Shown here: piece by piece, positions 25,214 through 47,442 of the stretch | Numbering within the stretch: the first letter of the stretch is position 1 | Layout: each line of letters starts with the position of its first letter | Assembly: GCA_965216395.1 (NCBI GenBank) | Contig: OZ244156.1 | Span: 648,765-712,764 of the forward strand | DNA length: 64,000 nucleotides | Direction: 5' to 3' | DNA from: Alphaproteobacteria bacterium | GTDB taxonomy: Bacteria > Pseudomonadota > Alphaproteobacteria > Micavibrionales > SZUA-601 | The notes under the pieces: generated by a model | Seen by the model: the letters and a program-made list of their open reading frames with translations, nothing else | Databases searched by the model: none | Told to the model about the DNA's origin: nothing | Position numbers and translations under genes: made by a program

Positions 25214-26710
25214 ATGTCAAATACAAATGCAGCGGTAGAAAATGACCCAGAAATTAAAAAGAAAAAAGAAGCTATCGCAAAAATTGCAGAATTTGTGCCT
25301 AATATTAAAAATTCAGTTGAAAATGCTGCGAAATATTATCCGAGAATTTATCGGAACGCGCAAAAAGCGATCTATGAACTCATGCTTGAAACGATGGAAA
25401 ATCATTTTTCTGAGAGAATTGAAAGCTATTATAGAGAGTTAGAATGTAGAGATAAACATCTTGTTAAAGATGAAAATATTATAAATAAAATTTTTAAAAA
25501 GAAAAAAACAAAAGTAATTCCAAATCAAAAAAAATATCCGTCACAATATGAATGTTATATGCGTCACCAAAATACGGCAGAATTTCATAAAAAAACGATT
25601 CTTGAAAATTTAAAAATTTATGCACAAATTGATCATTCTTATGCAAATTTTTTAGATAAAGATAATTTACAATATAGAAATGTAAATCAGATTCCTGAAG
25701 AAATTGTATCAAAAGAAACACAAGCAGAGATTTATAATCAAAAAATTTCTGTAGAAAGTCTCGATATTTTTCTCAATGAAAGTTTTTATTTCTATCAAAA
25801 ACGAACATTTTTAGAGCAATTTGGCTCTTATACAAAAATACAGATTGATAACTCGACCATAGATTTCACCGGTCTGCTATATGTTTTGAAAGAGTTACCA
25901 AAGAAAATTGACCTTTCGGAGAAAGCACACGAAAGCCGGGATGAATTTATTAAAAATATGGAACATGATACCACGACTGAGGTTGGTGTTTCAGAATTAA
26001 TGCTATTGAATCTTGATCAACTGGAAGAAATGGCTTTAACTGCAAAAAGGCAGGTCGATTTTTTCTCTGGGCATTTAGATAGAATACAAAAATTAGATAT
26101 GGTCTTAGCGACCGACAAAAGAGATGATAAAAACAAATCATCACAGAAAAGCTTCTCTAAAATGACAATAGAAGAAAACTGTAAATACTTTTCATATAGT
26201 TTGTCCTCTATAGAAAAATCCGAATATGGCAGCATCCATGAACAAGAAGGATTTTCTCGTTTTATTCCAGAATATCGTGATACGATTAAAGACCCTATAA
26301 TGGCGCAAAAATTGATAAATAGGTTTAAAGATAATGGGCTTGATGCCTATTCTTTACCAAATAGTTGTGCTGTAGCGCTTGATTTAACAGGCCAGAAACC
26401 TGAAATAGACGATGGCACCATTGCTAATCAAATCAATGATATATTGAGTTCTGATTCTGATCTTTATTATAGTTCTAAACAAGTTGCTATGACACCAATA
26501 ACAGCAAGAAGCGGTGTTTTATCAAAAAAAGACGAACCAGTCTTTTTTAACGGTTGGACACAGCTGCTTTATAAAGAAGGAGGTGTAACAGACCTTCGTG
26601 ATAAAAAAGCCATCTTATTACGTGTTGATGAAAACCGTATTACTGCAACTGAAATTATCAAACAGGTAGATAAAATAGTTGCTGTGATTAAAAAATCGGT
26701 TATCCAATAA
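25214..26710 (+). CDS. Hypothetical protein, 498 aa, lineage-specific orphan (no recognisable domain)
   Basis: Long uninterrupted ORF with an SD, its own promoter and its own terminator. K/E/N/D-rich. No signal peptide, TM segment or catalytic motif recognised by eye. Much more AT-rich than the flanking fabZ and lpxA. Confidence 0.75.
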   Translation: MSNTNAAVENDPEIKKKKEAIAKIAEFVPNIKNSVENAAKYYPRIYRNAQKAIYELMLETMENHFSERIESYYRELECRDKHLVKDENIINKIFKKKKTKVIPNQKKYPSQYECYMRHQNTAEFHKKTILENLKIYAQIDHSYANFLDKDNLQYRNVNQIPEEIVSKETQAEIYNQKISVESLDIFLNESFYFYQKRTFLEQFGSYTKIQIDNSTIDFTGLLYVLKELPKKIDLSEKAHESRDEFIKNMEHDTTTEVGVSELMLLNLDQLEEMALTAKRQVDFFSGHLDRIQKLDMVLATDKRDDKNKSSQKSFSKMTIEENCKYFSYSLSSIEKSEYGSIHEQEGFSRFIPEYRDTIKDPIMAQKLINRFKDNGLDAYSLPNSCAVALDLTGQKPEIDDGTIANQINDILSSDSDLYYSSKQVAMTPITARSGVLSKKDEPVFFNGWTQLLYKEGGVTDLRDKKAILLRVDENRITATEIIKQVDKIVAVIKKSVIQ

Positions 26711-39769: not shown

Positions 39770-41783
<2,014 letters not shown>

Positions 41784-41784
41784 A

Positions 41785-42479
41785 ATGACACAGCGTCCCA
41801 TTCCACCATATTACGCTAATCCAGATGATGCCAGTTGTCATCAAGCTGTTACAAAAATGATTTTAGAACATTTTGAACCTAACAAAAAGCGTTCATGGGA
41901 TGAGATAAATACTTTTTGTGGTGCTGAAAAAGGTAAAGGCTGTTGGGATTTTAAATCCATAGTAGAGTTTAGCCGAAACAATTATGATGTAACATGGTTT
42001 GACCGTGTTGATCTCAATGCGTTCATTAATGATCCTGTTGGATATATTCATCAAACAAATGGGTCAGATCAAGCAGATTTTTGTATTGACGAAGGTCCAG
42101 ACTTAGAAAAAGTTGTTTTGCAAGTAAAAGAACTCGTTGAAAATTTAACTAACATAGATTGGAAAAATAGAAGTTTTACAATAGAAACAATGCAAGATTA
42201 CATTTCACAAGGTTATCTTTTGCAAGTTTTTGTAAACCCGTATTTATTATACGGTGGGGAGTATCAGCCAGGAGGACATGTTGTTTTAGTTTATGACATG
42301 GATGAAAGAAATGTATTCTTCCACGATCCTGGAACAACTTTTCAAGATGGGCGCACTATGGATCAAAATCCAAGGATGAAACTAAGTCATGCAGATTTTA
42401 TGCGTGCAACAGTTGATAAACCTGGCAATCTTCCAGATGCATTTAAAGCCATTAAACCGAAAAAGAATGGATTAAGTTT

Positions 42480-42483
<4 letters not shown>
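41785..42483 (+). CDS. Stand-alone cytoplasmic papain-fold cysteine peptidase, C39-like (Peptidase_C39_2-like)
   Basis: 232 aa with no signal peptide. N(-6)...SC(18)[12 protein letters not shown] resembles the C39 Q-x5-C-G-x-A-x-L-x-M-I-L motif. [21 protein letters not shown] resembles the C39 H-F-V-V-L...DP His/Asp motif. 1-nt gap after pyrG and ATGA overlap with kdsA. Confidence 0.6.
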
Positions 42484-44586
<2,103 letters not shown>

Positions 44587-45037: not shown

Positions 45038-46042
45038 GTGTCTGTGTCAACTGCAAAAGAAAAAGTAAGCGTTTTGCCAAATAAGCAAGAAGCACTCAAA
45101 ATGTATAAAGATATGCTTGAAATTCGTCGTTTTGAAGAAAAGGCAGGGCAGCTTTACGGCATGGGTCAAATCGCTGGTTTCTGTCACCTTTATATTGGTC
45201 AAGAGGCTGTCGTTGTCGGTATGCAATCTGTTCAAGATAAAAATGACACGGTTATTACAACCTATCGTGACCATGGGCATATGTTGGCCTGTGATATGGA
45301 CCCTAAGGGTGTGATGGCGGAATTAACGGGACGCATTGACGGTTATTCCAAGGGTAAAGGCGGGTCGATGCATATGTTTTCGAAAGAGAAAAACTTTTAT
45401 GGTGGCCATGGGATCGTTGGCGCTTGTGTTCCCTTGGGAACGGGTTTAGCTTTCACGCATAAATATAATAATGATGGTCAAATTAATCTTTGTTACTTCG
45501 GTGATGGTGCCTCCAATCAGGGGCAGGTTTATGAGGCCTTTAACATGGCCAAGCTTTGGAATTTGCCAGTTCTTTATATTATTGAAAACAATAATTATGC
45601 GATGGGTACATCAACTAAACGTCACCGCGCGGGTGAGCTTTACAAGCGTGGCGAAGGGTATGATATTCCTGGCAAAAAAGTTGATGGTATGGATATTTTA
45701 AAAGTCCGAGAAGCGGCCATAGAAGCAATTGATTATGTGCGTTCAGGTAAGGGGCCTTATTTGTTAGAGGTTGAAACCTATCGTTATCGTGGCCACTCTA
45801 TGTCTGATCCGGCAAAATATCGTACTAAAGACGAAGTGAATGAGATGAAATCTCAACGTGATCCGATTAGCAATTTTCAAACATGGCTGATTGATAATAA
45901 TATGGCCAGCGAAGAAGAATTGAAACAAATTGATAAAGACATTAAGGCATTGATGAAAGATGTGGCCGAATTTGCTACGAATTCACCATTACCCGATGCG
46001 TCCGAACTTTGGACGGATGTTTTAATTGAGACGAAGGCTTAA
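45038..46042 (+). CDS. pdhA: Pyruvate dehydrogenase E1 component subunit alpha
   Basis: 334 aa with a GTG start after a GGAGG SD. TPP-binding GDGASNQG...NN motif and [11 protein letters not shown]. Confidence 0.94.
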
Positions 46043-46053
46043 GGAGAGAGAAA

Positions 46054-47442
46054 ATGACGATTAAAATTCTTATGCCAGCACTCAGCCCCACCATGACCGA
46101 AGGTAATCTTGCGCGCTGGGTTAAAAAAGAAGGTGATACCATTGAATCGGGTGATGTGATTGCTGAAATTGAAACGGATAAAGCCACAATGGAAGTTGAG
46201 GCTGTTGATGACGGTGTTTTAGGTAAAATCCTTATTCCAGAGGGAAGCGAAAACATCGCTGTGAATACGCCGATTGCGGTTTTACTGGAGGAGGGCGAAA
46301 CAGCCGATGATATTGGTGAGATTGACACCAATATTCAATCACAGTCCCGCCCATTGGAAAACCCGACCACGTCACAACCGATTGAAAATATTCCGTGTGT
46401 TCCGCCCGCTGTGGCGCCGACGACACAACCCGTTTCTATACCTGAACCCTCTTATGGTGAAACTCAATCCATGACGGTGCGTGAAGCTTTGCGGGACGCT
46501 ATGGCAGAAGAAATGCGTCAAGACGAAACCATTTACATTATGGGTGAAGAAGTTGCGGAATACCAAGGTGCGTATAAAGTCACTCAAGGGTTGCATGATG
46601 AATTTGGTGATAAACGTGTGATTGATACACCAATTACGGAACACGGTTTCGCTGGAATTGCCGTGGGATCAGCCTTTAACGGTTTGAAACCGATTTGTGA
46701 ATTTATGACCTTTAACTTTTCGATGCAAGCGATTGACCAAATCGTCAATTCTGCCGCCAAAACGCTTTATATGTCGGGTGGGCAATTGGGATGTCCGATT
46801 GTTTTCCGTGGCCCAAATGGCGCAGCATCCCGTGTCGGGGCACAACATTCCCAAGATTTCGCCAGTTGGTATGCTCATATTCCAGGCCTTAAAGTGATAT
46901 CACCATGGTCAGGTGCGGACTGTAAAGGGCTTTTAAAGGCTGCTATTCGTGACCCAAACCCCGTTGTCTTTTTAGAAAATGAATTGATGTATGGCCAAAG
47001 TTTTGAAGTGCCGGTCTCGCAAAATTTCGTTCTTCCTATTGGTAAGGCAAAAATTGAGCGCGCGGGCACGGATGTCACTATTACGGCTTATTCCATTATG
47101 GTAGGTAAAGCTTTACAAGCGGCTGAAAAATTAGCTGAGCAAGGGATCTCGGCGGAAGTGATTAACTTACGCACGATCCGCCCATTGGATGTCCATACAA
47201 TTGTTGAATCGGTTAAAAAGACTAATCGATGGGTCAATGCTGAAGAATGTTGGCCACAACATGGGATTGGTTCAGAAATGGCGGCGATTGCGATGGAACA
47301 TTGTTTTGATTATTTGGATGCACCAGTGAAACGCGTTCATCAGAAAAATGTGCCTTTGCCCTATGCTGAAAATTTAGAGAAAATAGCGTTGCCACAAGTC
47401 GATGATATAATCAATGCGTGTAAAGAAGTGTGTTATAAATAG
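46054..47442 (+). CDS. pdhB: Pyruvate dehydrogenase E1 component subunit beta with N-terminal lipoyl domain
   Basis: N-terminal lipoyl domain ([14 protein letters not shown]), Pro/Thr-rich linker, then the E1-beta transketolase-like core. 462 aa. Confidence 0.94.

What the first reader, a model, noticed from the sequence alone, without database searches (positions are those of the whole stretch)
41785..42483. Stand-alone cytoplasmic C39-like cysteine peptidase translationally coupled inside pyrG-kdsA-eno
pyrG-kdsA-eno-ftsB is a widely conserved block. Here a 232-aa ORF sits 1 nt after the pyrG stop, and its stop overlaps the kdsA ATG (ATGA). The sequence carries the papain-fold/C39 hallmarks: a polar residue at -6 (N), then [14 protein letters not shown] (compare Q-x5-CG-x-A-C-L-x-MIL), and later [21 protein letters not shown] (compare HFVVL...DP). 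The Cys-His spacing is unusually long, about 147 residues. C39 domains normally sit on bacteriocin-exporting ABC transporters. This one has no transporter, no signal peptide and no visible double-glycine substrate gene nearby, so its substrate and role are open.
Basis: partly seen in the sequence, partly recalled or inferred. Interest (0 to 1): 0.6.

Follow-up and report, generated by a model that had tools for sequence, protein, structure and literature searches.

The report
Stand-alone C39-like cysteine peptidase in pyrG–kdsA operon
A 232-residue gene wedged between the housekeeping genes pyrG and kdsA encodes a cytoplasmic papain-fold cysteine enzyme from a widespread but unstudied family of stand-alone "C39-like" peptidases; the gene call and fold are solid, its substrate is unknown, and it is a moderately interesting new member of a known kind.

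Summary
ORF 41785..42483 (+, 232 aa) starts 1 nt after the pyrG stop, and its stop overlaps the kdsA ATG (ATGA).

It is a real gene. An exhaustive HMMER search finds 336 representative clusters, mostly stand-alone proteins of 210-230 aa. In 256 aligned sequences His165 is invariant. Cys18 is present in every sequence that covers it. Position 181 is Asp/Asn/Glu in 254, and position 12 is Asn/Gln in 243.

AlphaFold2 gives a confident model (pLDDT 93.7). Cys18 caps a helix, and His165 and Asp181 sit on a beta-hairpin. All the leading fold matches are papain-fold cysteine enzymes (PeiR, PCAT1/ComA/LahT C39 domains, Alr0975, CtaG). The family profile aligns Asn/Cys/His/Asp onto ComA Gln11/Cys17/His96/Asp112.

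The protein is not a canonical C39. It has no ABC transporter, no hit to PF03412 and no GG-leader gene. The roughly 147-residue Cys-His spacing is normal for its family (139-153).

The gene is a lineage-specific insertion. One relative (PyrG 81% identical) keeps it in the same slot at only 40% identity, and none of 80 other alphaproteobacterial pyrG loci has it. Close relatives sit tightly coupled in other housekeeping operons (pntAB, ffh, mur). There is no conserved partner gene, so the substrate remains open.

The parts
41785..42483 (+). CDS of the 232-aa stand-alone C39-like (papain-fold) cysteine enzyme 'X'
   Evidence: ORF. 336 homolog clusters. Pfam DUF3335 and C39_2 hits. AF2 pLDDT 93.7. 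Papain-fold matches in the PDB.
41818..41820 (+). Asn12 codon (AAT): predicted oxyanion-hole residue, 6 residues before the nucleophile
   Evidence: N in 74/80 sequences and N/Q in 243/256. The profile position aligns with ComA Gln11.
41836..41838 (+). Cys18 codon (TGT): predicted catalytic nucleophile at the N-terminus of helix 18-30
   Evidence: Invariant in 80/80 and in 253/256, where the 3 exceptions are N-terminally truncated sequences. Helix 18-30 is in the AF2 model. The residue aligns with ComA Cys17.
42277..42279 (+). His165 codon (CAT): predicted general base, first residue of strand 165-172
   Evidence: Invariant in 256/256. Aligns with ComA His96. Strand assignment.
42322..42333 (+). 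H180-D181-P182-G183 motif. Asp181 is the predicted third triad residue, at the end of strand 176-181 and 16 residues after His165.
   Evidence: Position 181 is D 224, N 28, E 2 of 256. The His-to-Asp spacing is 16 across the family, as in ComA His96-Asp112.
42013..42234 (+). Residues 77-150: a mainly helical insertion (helices 77-82, 84-92, 94-103, 107-119, then beta-alpha-beta) that lengthens the Cys-His spacing relative to transporter C39 domains
   Evidence: AF2 secondary structure. The profile alignment to ComA skips profile positions 77-159 against ComA residues 78-94.
42331..42384 (+). Residues 183-200: a loop directly after the catalytic Asp that is 8-12 residues longer in the close clade of X than in the core family, a possible specificity determinant
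   Evidence: Alignments A1 and A2. pLDDT is about 82-83 here against more than 94 elsewhere.
41781..41787 (+). pyrG stop (TAA), 1 nt, then the X start (ATG): tight coupling. An SD-like AGGTTGGTG lies at 41772-41780 inside the pyrG 3' end.
   Evidence: Sequence. The relative L001 has TAAATG with a 0-nt gap.
42480..42483 (+). ATGA overlap of the kdsA start and the X stop
   Evidence: Sequence. The kdsA start is consistent with the NCBIfam alignment from residue 4.
40149..41783 (+). pyrG (CTP synthase), upstream operon neighbour
   Evidence: NCBIfam NF003792, 833 bits.
42480..43310 (+). kdsA (KDO-8-phosphate synthase), downstream operon neighbour
   Evidence: NCBIfam NF003543, 433 bits.
43312..44586 (+). 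eno (enolase), next gene in the operon, 1 nt after kdsA
   Evidence: NCBIfam TIGR01060, 682 bits.

Best explanation
X is an active, soluble, cytoplasmic papain-fold thiol enzyme. It belongs to a distinct family of stand-alone 'C39-like' proteins that has no Pfam model of its own. In sequence space the family lies between Peptidase_C39_2, DUF3335, Guanylate_cyc_2/GUCD1 and the transporter-borne C39 domain. Mechanism (inferred from homology): Cys18, at the N-cap of helix 18-30, is deprotonated by His165. His165 is oriented by Asp181 on the neighbouring strand of a beta-hairpin. Asn12 supplies the oxyanion hole. The enzyme forms a thioacyl intermediate on an amide (peptide or isopeptide) bond and, most likely, hydrolyses it. 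A helical insertion of about 70 residues and a clade-specific loop after Asp181 probably shape the substrate groove. The gene was inserted between pyrG and kdsA in the common ancestor of this genome and one metagenomic relative. It has no room for its own promoter or terminator, so it is expressed by read-through and translational coupling within tpiA-secG-pyrG-X-kdsA-eno. It is not a bacteriocin/double-glycine leader peptidase. Its substrate is an intracellular peptide, isopeptide or small amide that cannot be named from sequence. What is shown: the ORF, the coupling geometry, the family, residue conservation, the fold, and the synteny and insertion. What is inferred: catalytic activity, hydrolase rather than transferase, co-transcription, and cytoplasmic location.
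For: ORF and junction geometry. A family of 336 clusters, mostly 210-230 aa. Cys18 and His165 are the only invariant columns in 80 sequences at 28% mean identity. In 256 sequences, His is 256/256, Cys is 253/256 (the rest are truncated), position 181 is D/N/E in 254, N/Q12 in 243 and W54 in 248. Pfam C39-like hits for X and for the family. AF2 gives pLDDT 93.7 and pTM 0.91, with the Cys at a helix N-terminus and His/Asp on consecutive strands. Foldseek against the PDB: PeiR E 1.4e-6, then PCAT1, ComA, LahT, Alr0975, CtaG, AziU3 and 3ERV, all papain-fold. The profile aligns N/C/H/D onto ComA Q11/C17/H96/D112 with the same His-Asp spacing of 16. There is no hydrophobic segment, and the Cys lies about 17 residues from the N-terminus family-wide. 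The same pyrG-X-kdsA slot is occupied in relative L001, with X 40% identical against 81-93% for the flanks. None of 80 other alphaproteobacterial pyrG loci has it, and 36 of the 47 loci with kdsA downstream have pyrG and kdsA directly adjacent. No plus-strand terminator-like site lies between pyrG and eno.
Against: No biochemical data exist for any member of the family. Model coordinates could not be inspected, so the triad distances are unverified. X scores only at threshold on Pfam models (27.8 vs 25; 22.8 vs 24), and the DUF3335 match covers only residues 122-208. The same fold and triad also support acyl-transfer or ligase chemistry (CtaG, AziU3 and the phytochelatin-synthase-like Alr0975 are among the matches). 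There is no conserved gene neighbour from which to infer a substrate. X evolves much faster than its neighbours and has the lowest GC3 in the operon, which is also compatible with weak constraint.
Confidence: 0.7

Rival explanations
1. X is a cytoplasmic amidase acting on cell-envelope building blocks. It would trim or recycle murein peptides or isopeptides, or a peptide/amino-acid decoration on a nucleotide- or lipid-linked glycan precursor. This would be analogous to cytoplasmic papain-like murein-peptide hydrolases and to isopeptidases such as PeiR.
For: The best PDB match is the pseudomurein endoisopeptidase PeiR. The best viral matches are endolysin or LysA peptidase domains. X is coupled to kdsA, an LPS core sugar synthase. 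P0173 sits inside a polysaccharide cluster, Bac_transf-GT4-?-GT4-X-GT4...flippase, overlapping the next GT4. P0005 overlaps a Mur ligase downstream of mraY. P0217 lies next to a GDSL lipase, and an Amidase_2 gene lies about 1.7 kb upstream, two genes away.
Against: Other contexts have nothing to do with the envelope: ffh, pntAB, NUDIX, methionine aminopeptidase, GNAT. Structural similarity to PeiR is modest (TM 0.50, 11% identity). Only about 12 contexts were sampled, with no statistics.
Confidence: 0.2
2. X is not a hydrolase. It would be a Cys-dependent acyl- or aminoacyl-transferase or amide-bond-forming enzyme that uses the same thioacyl intermediate, as do CtaG, AziU3/U2, BtrH and phytochelatin synthase.
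For: CtaG, AziU2-U3 and the glutathione acyl-enzyme of Alr0975 are among the top fold matches. Four family members hit BtrH_N. The related DUF3335 family is reported to be often fused to GNAT domains proposed to act as peptide ligases (PMC10318531). P0004 has a GNAT gene immediately upstream.
Against: Sequence profiles are closest to true peptidase families, C39/C39_2. No acyl-carrier, ATP-grasp or other biosynthetic partner lies near X.
Confidence: 0.12
3. X is a true double-glycine leader peptidase working in trans, like an excised C39 domain such as LahT150. It would process a peptide encoded elsewhere in the genome.
For: The catalytic motifs and His-Asp spacing align with ComA, and PCAT1 and LahT are among the fold matches.
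Against: X does not hit PF03412 at all. It has a roughly 70-residue insertion absent from GG-peptidases. None of the ten largest other ORFs scanned is a bacteriocin ABC exporter, and the window holds no credible GG-leader ORF (the two regex hits lie inside unrelated frames). The family is common in CPR bacteria and DPANN archaea in unrelated contexts.
Confidence: 0.05
4. X is an exported effector or toxin (an AvrRpt2/C70-like or deubiquitinase-like protease) delivered to a host or competitor by a Sec-independent route, or a conflict-system component.
For: X evolves very fast relative to its neighbours, 40% against 81-93% identity. The source genome is small, an approximately 1.65-Mb contig. 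Five family members hit Peptidase_C70. One fusion is to an Imm5-like immunity domain. Remote fold matches include the bacterial DUB TssM.
Against: No hits in PADLOC or PHROGs. No relatives of X on plasmids or phages. The window shows no secretion-system or toxin context. The gene is embedded in a core metabolic operon. The family is widespread in free-living uncultured lineages.
Confidence: 0.06

Closest known systems
Peptidase C39 domain of bacteriocin/peptide-exporting ABC transporters (ComA PEP 3K8U, PCAT1 4RY2, LahT150 6MPZ; Pfam PF03412)
   Same: Papain fold. Cys/His/Asp triad with a polar oxyanion residue 6 residues before the Cys. The His-to-Asp spacing of 16 and the 'DP' motif align residue for residue with ComA Q11/C17/H96/D112.
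   Different: X is stand-alone rather than fused to an ABC transporter. Asn replaces Gln. A roughly 70-residue helical insertion makes the Cys-His distance 147 instead of 79. X itself does not hit PF03412. No double-glycine substrate is in view.
Peptidase_C39_2 (PF13529), e.g. the Bacillus anthracis putative C39-like peptidase 3ERV and endolysin catalytic domains
   Same: Stand-alone C39-like domains with a longer Cys-His spacing. 57 of 80 family members hit this model, some over its full length (3-142 of 143). The profile hits 3ERV at E 1.4e-4.
   Different: X scores 22.8 bits, just under the 24-bit cutoff. From general knowledge, characterised PF13529 members are secreted or phage-borne cell-wall enzymes, whereas X has no export signal and sits in a metabolic operon.
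DUF3335 (PF11814) and Guanylate_cyc_2 / GUCD1 (PF09778)
   Same: Architecture of about 210 residues. X passes the DUF3335 cutoff (27.8 vs 25). Some members align over nearly the whole Guanylate_cyc_2 model (12-201 of 212). Both are uncharacterised papain-like families described as closely related to each other (PMC10318531).
   Different: The DUF3335 match covers only residues 122-208 of X. Guanylate_cyc_2 scores stay below its 28.1-bit cutoff. DUF3335 is reported to be often fused to GNAT domains, and X is not.
Pseudomurein endoisopeptidase PeiR (C71; PDB 8Z4H)
   Same: Best structural match (E 1.4e-6, TM 0.50 over 221 columns). Similar size (228 aa). Cys-His-Asp isopeptidase. The profile hits it at E 5e-4.
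   Different: Identity is 11% and the TM-score is modest. PeiR is a virus-encoded lytic enzyme acting on archaeal cell walls (PMC6189367). X is in a Gram-negative alphaproteobacterium with no lysis context.

Membership tests
Peptidase C39 sensu stricto (PF03412 / MEROPS C39) | Papain-like fold with the Cys at a helix N-terminus and His/Asp on a beta-hairpin | tested here: met
   AF2 pLDDT 93.7: helix 18-30 and strands 165-172 / 176-181. Foldseek matches to PCAT1, ComA and LahT.
Peptidase C39 sensu stricto (PF03412 / MEROPS C39) | Conserved Gln(-6)/Cys/His/Asp catalytic set | tested here: met
   N12 (N/Q in 243/256), C18, H165 and D/N/E181 are conserved and align to ComA Q11/C17/H96/D112. Asn replaces Gln.
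Peptidase C39 sensu stricto (PF03412 / MEROPS C39) | Significant match to the PF03412 model | tested here: not met
   X has no PF03412 hit even at E<=10. 43 of 80 relatives hit it at E<=0.01; in the 19 members scanned individually the scores ran from 16.7 to 31 bits around the 22-bit cutoff.
Peptidase C39 sensu stricto (PF03412 / MEROPS C39) | N-terminal domain of an ABC exporter (PCAT) | tested here: not met
   X is a separate 232-aa ORF flanked by pyrG and kdsA. None of the ten largest other ORFs scanned is an ABC exporter.
Peptidase C39 sensu stricto (PF03412 / MEROPS C39) | Double-glycine leader peptide substrate encoded nearby | tested here: inconclusive
   A regex scan of all ORFs of 30 aa or more in the 64-kb window gave only two chance matches inside unrelated frames. 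The rest of the genome was not available.
Peptidase_C39_2 (PF13529) | Score at or above the gathering cutoff (24 bits) | tested here: not met
   22.8 bits, E 1.4e-4, residues 112-182 only. 57 of 80 relatives hit at E<=0.01.
DUF3335 (PF11814) | Score at or above the gathering cutoff (25 bits) | tested here: met
   27.8 bits, E 2.1e-6, but only model positions 108-191 of 206. The collection's own precomputed annotation also lists PF11814 for this protein.
Guanylate_cyc_2 / GUCD1 (PF09778) | Score at or above the gathering cutoff (28.1 bits) | tested here: not met
   No hit for X. 39 of 80 relatives hit at E<=0.01. The ten members scanned individually all scored below 28.1 bits, although some covered the model over its full length.
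Uncharacterised stand-alone C39-like family defined here (336 clusters at 50% identity) | About 210-230 aa; P-[FY]-x-x-N-x-D-x-x-x-C-x-Q-A near the N-terminus; GK-x-T-W; G-H...H-D-P-G; Cys-His 139-153; His-Asp 16 | tested here: met
   phmmer E down to 4e-48. All motifs are present in X except the H17 preceding the Cys, which is Ser in X.
Any papain-fold thiol enzyme | Catalytic geometry (Cys Sγ-His Nδ1 about 3.5-4 Å, His-Asp hydrogen bond) and thiol-dependent activity | not testable with these tools

The most novel reading that the evidence does not exclude
The X clade may be a mobile 'operon hitch-hiker'. On this reading it is a fast-evolving cytoplasmic cysteine protease that repeatedly inserts, translationally coupled, directly behind highly expressed housekeeping genes (pyrG, ffh, pntA, a Mur ligase). 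It would act on a conserved intracellular target, for example removing a peptide or isopeptide tag or modification. The family would then be the prokaryotic counterpart of eukaryotic GUCD1, and a tractable handle on the unknown function of that papain-like family.
Probability: 0.1. Interest if true: 0.65.

Novelty: new member of a known kind. Interest (0 to 1): 0.35.

Why it matters
This is a well-founded gene and fold assignment for a protein that current profile libraries barely recognise. It also delineates a sizeable family with no dedicated Pfam model and no characterised member: 336 clusters at 50% identity, found in CPR bacteria, DPANN and other archaea, and scattered Proteobacteria. 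The family shows that C39-type catalytic machinery exists widely as a soluble cytoplasmic enzyme unconnected to peptide export. Finding the substrate would add a new intracellular proteolytic or amidase activity and could shed light on the related, equally obscure DUF3335 and GUCD1 families. The local genomics is a tidy example of how accessory genes can become embedded in core operons: a lineage-specific insertion, kept for a long time inside an otherwise contiguous pyrG-kdsA junction, evolving about four times faster than its neighbours. None of this overturns current understanding.

Tried and rejected
- The word-indexed homology search with X alone returned only X itself. The exhaustive phmmer search was needed to find the family.
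- Exact look-ups for contigs and names gave nothing: no contig record for X and no source names for X or nine neighbour proteins. It is an alphaproteobacterium by PyrG/KdsA similarity (no more than 69% to any of the 80 reference loci kept), with a roughly 1.65-Mb contig and 38.8% GC.
- The genome-contig scan with X found no relative. Alignments A1 and A2 were too divergent for pattern scans. The metagenome-contig scan with the X+P0002 alignment found none.
- The PDB sequence search with X alone gave only noise. The family profile was needed.
- PADLOC gave no hit and PHROGs nothing meaningful (one E 0.009 partial match of one family member to a family of unknown function). There was no tblastn hit for X on plasmids or phages. 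A core member hit one Hymenobacter plasmid 'hypothetical protein' and, remotely, cyanophage endolysins.
- Rfam found nothing in the window.
- No insertion scars or meaningful repeats lie at the gene borders.
- The GG-leader regex gave only two chance hits.
- dN/dS between the window and L001 was considered but rejected, because 40% amino-acid identity means synonymous sites are saturated.
- A conserved partner gene was sought in 12 contexts and none was found.
Full report
**Observation.** The pyrG stop codon TAA occupies 41781-41783. One base follows, then the ATG. The TGA stop of the ORF overlaps the kdsA ATG as ATGA at 42480-42483. No ORF of 60 aa or more lies on the opposite strand. NCBIfam confirms the neighbours as tpiA, secG, pyrG (833 bits), kdsA (433 bits), eno (682 bits), pdhA and pdhB. 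The small ftsB-like gene has no NCBIfam hit, but its counterpart in a related contig hits Pfam DivIC. No plus-strand terminator-like site lies between pyrG and eno, and promoter-like sites are no more frequent than in shuffled sequence. The block therefore reads as one compact operon. That is an inference, not a demonstration.

**Is it a real gene?** The word-indexed search found only the protein itself, on a 1,649,955-bp contig from NCBI/ENA. An exhaustive phmmer search of 1.84 billion cluster representatives found 336 proteins at E<=0.001 and 142 at E<=1e-10. Almost all are 205-235 aa and match over nearly their full length, and the best non-self hit has E 4e-48 and 40% identity. In an 80-sequence alignment with 28% mean column identity, the only invariant columns are Cys18 and His165, and P8, N12 and W54 are at least 90% conserved. 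I realigned all 256 near-full-length sequences retrieved:
- His165 is present in 256/256.
- Cys18 is present in 253/256. The three exceptions have a gap there because they are N-terminally truncated.
- Position 181 is Asp 224, Asn 28, Glu 2.
- Position 12 is Asn 229, Gln 14.
- Trp54 is present in 248.

This is the signature of a catalytic site under strong selection in an otherwise fast-diverging protein.

**Fold and catalytic apparatus.** Pfam places X at threshold level in two 'Peptidase_C39 like' families: DUF3335 at 27.8 bits (cutoff 25, residues 122-208) and Peptidase_C39_2 at 22.8 bits (cutoff 24). Of 80 family members, 57 hit C39_2, 52 DUF3335, 43 Peptidase_C39, 39 Guanylate_cyc_2, 5 Peptidase_C70 and 4 BtrH_N. 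Scores cluster around the cutoffs. Full-length coverage occurs only against C39_2 and Guanylate_cyc_2. The family is therefore a separate branch of the papain-like clan with no dedicated model.

AlphaFold2 with the 80-sequence alignment gives pLDDT 93.7 and pTM 0.91. Cys18 is the first residue of helix 18-30. His165 opens strand 165-172. Asp181 closes the next strand, 176-181. This is the canonical arrangement of papain-fold enzymes (established knowledge).

Foldseek against the PDB gives 11 matches with E<=0.001, all papain-fold cysteine enzymes: pseudomurein endoisopeptidase PeiR (E 1.4e-6, TM 0.50), the PCAT1 C39 domain, AziU2-U3 and the glutathione acyl-enzyme of Alr0975. Weaker matches include ComA, LahT150, CtaG and the B. 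anthracis C39-like protein 3ERV. The viral library returns endolysin or LysA peptidase domains and an AvrRpt2-like protein.

A profile of the family hits the ComA peptidase domain (E 3.5e-5). It aligns the family's Asn/Cys with ComA Gln11/Cys17, and His/Asp-Pro with ComA His96/Asp112-Pro113. The His-to-Asp spacing is 16 in both. I recall from the literature on 3K8U that these four ComA residues are its oxyanion and triad residues; this is my own knowledge, not checked here. I could not inspect the model's coordinates, so the triad distances remain untested.

The protein is stand-alone. It has no hydrophobic segment: the maximum 19-residue Kyte-Doolittle mean is 0.68. The nucleophile lies a median of 17 residues from the N-terminus family-wide, which leaves no room for a signal peptide. 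Cytoplasmic location is the reasonable inference.

The 'unusually long' Cys-His spacing (147) is long only relative to transporter C39 domains (79 in ComA). Within the family it ranges from 139 to 153 with median 143.5. It is explained by a mostly helical insertion at about residues 77-150. Being detached from a transporter is the rule in this family rather than an anomaly.

X fails several defining features of C39 proper. It has no PF03412 hit. None of the ten largest other ORFs in the window is an ABC exporter; they are nuo, RNase J, ProRS, DnaE, BamA, ComEC, GltX, NtrY/NtrX and one 498-aa ORF with no Pfam hit. There is no credible double-glycine leader ORF in the window. I therefore file it as C39-like and not as a C39 peptidase.

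**Genomic history.** The closest homolog, P0002 (40% identity), lies on a metagenomic contig with the same order: tpiA-secG-pyrG-X-kdsA-eno-ftsB-pdhA. It has a 0-nt gap after pyrG and a 3-nt gap before kdsA. Between the two genomes the identities are:
- PyrG 81%, KdsA 89%, Eno 93%, PdhA 90%
- TpiA 62%, SecG 66%, FtsB 67%
- X 40%

X also has the lowest GC3 of the operon in both genomes: 0.223 against 0.26-0.40 in the window, and 0.262 against 0.32-0.41 in L001.

I fetched 80 pyrG loci from species-representative alphaproteobacterial genomes, with PyrG identity of 69% or less. None encodes a family member within 5 kb. Of the 47 loci with kdsA downstream, 36 have it 7-194 nt after pyrG. The other 11 carry unrelated inserts: a VOC-like protein of about 290 aa, purC, or a small membrane protein. 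X is thus a lineage-specific insertion into a normally contiguous junction. It has been retained since the two genomes diverged, with its catalytic residues intact, while the rest of the sequence changed rapidly.

**Contexts of other family members.** There is no conserved partner.

Close clade:
- P0003 follows ffh by 6 nt.
- P0007 lies between pntA(alpha2) and pntB, with a 2-nt gap and an ATGA overlap.
- P0005 overlaps a Mur ligase by 8 nt, downstream of mraY and a ParE toxin pair.
- P0004 follows a GNAT gene.

Distant members:
- P0173 is embedded in a polysaccharide cluster: Bac_transf, three GT4 genes, DUF4012 and a flippase.
- P0217 follows a GDSL lipase, with an Amidase_2 gene about 1.7 kb upstream.
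- P0166, from a Nealsonbacteria genome, follows a NUDIX gene.
- P0232, in an archaeal context, sits between DUF192 and methionine aminopeptidase.
- P0176 and P0199 are solitary.

Source names indicate CPR bacteria, Binatia, Geobacteraceae and Aenigmarchaeota. NCBI already labels a few members 'C39 family peptidase'. Rare fusions add DUF6879 or an Imm5-like immunity domain. The family is essentially absent from PADLOC, PHROGs, plasmids and phages. Envelope-related neighbours recur (kdsA, Mur ligase, glycosyltransferases, a nearby amidase), but they are a minority of a small sample.

**Mechanism and rivals.** I consider it most likely (0.7) that X is an active cytoplasmic thiol hydrolase using Cys18/His165/Asp181 with Asn12 as the oxyanion residue. 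It would be expressed by read-through and translational coupling from the pyrG operon, and would cleave an intracellular peptide, isopeptide or small-amide substrate that cannot yet be named.

The rivals below are alternatives for the unresolved parts of that reading, namely substrate, chemistry and location. They are not independent alternatives to it:
- an envelope-precursor or murein-peptide amidase (0.2)
- a transferase or ligase rather than a hydrolase (0.12)
- a trans-acting double-glycine leader peptidase (0.05)
- an exported effector or conflict protein (0.06)

The literature search found only a classification paper. It notes that DUF3335 is close to Guanylate_cyc_2 and is often fused to GNAT domains (PMC10318531). 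No paper found in these searches addresses this family.

**Verdict.** The finding is a new member of a known kind, within an uncharacterised subfamily that has no dedicated Pfam model. The points of real interest are the stable, translationally coupled insertion into a core operon, the rapid divergence around a fixed catalytic site, and the tendency of close relatives to occupy analogous slots in other housekeeping operons. These justify moderate interest (0.35). The substrate remains the open question.

Noticed in passing
L095:220-927; L002:381-1055; L005:2532-3221; L001:6001-6675: Close relatives of X sit at a different place in each genome, but almost always within 0-8 nt of, or overlapping, a conserved housekeeping gene: between pntA and pntB, after ffh, after a Mur ligase, and after pyrG. 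This pattern of 'operon hitch-hiking' has no obvious explanation.
   Followed up: partly
L001:10235-10423: The closest related contig has a 62-aa tautomerase-family gene wedged between pdhA and pdhB. The window lacks it: there pdhA ends at 46042 and pdhB starts at 46054. This is another small lineage-specific insertion in the same gene block.
   Followed up: no
L005:695-1266: A 91-aa ORF plus a ParE-toxin gene are inserted between mraY and a Mur ligase in the contig that carries X homolog P0005.
   Followed up: no
window 25214-26710 (+): A 498-aa ORF with no Pfam hit at E<=1e-5, sitting among housekeeping genes.
   Followed up: no
L024, L040, L047, L063, L052, L068, L081 (pyrG-kdsA gap); L038:6869-7837; L048:6747-7019: In other Alphaproteobacteria the pyrG-kdsA junction is sometimes occupied by an unrelated VOC/glyoxalase-like gene of about 290 aa, by purC, or by a small membrane-protein ORF. 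The junction seems to tolerate insertions.
   Followed up: partly
P0210 (356 aa) and P0074 (363 aa): Rare fusions of the family domain: a C-terminal Imm5_like putative immunity domain (PF21805, E 2.8e-40) and an N-terminal DUF6879 (PF21806, E 5e-27). These hint at a conflict-system role for some members.
   Followed up: no
window 39770-40147 (+): SecG is 125 aa. The TIGR00810 model (73 positions) covers residues 3-74, leaving an acidic C-terminal tail of about 50 residues. The tail is also present in the L001 homolog (126 aa).
   Followed up: no
L100:5962-6624 (Hymenobacter volaticus plasmid NZ_CP095065.1): The only plasmid-borne family member found is annotated 'hypothetical protein'. Its start overlaps by 1 nt the end of an upstream 327-aa hypothetical gene, and a site-specific integrase gene lies about 2.3 kb upstream on the opposite strand.
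   Followed up: no
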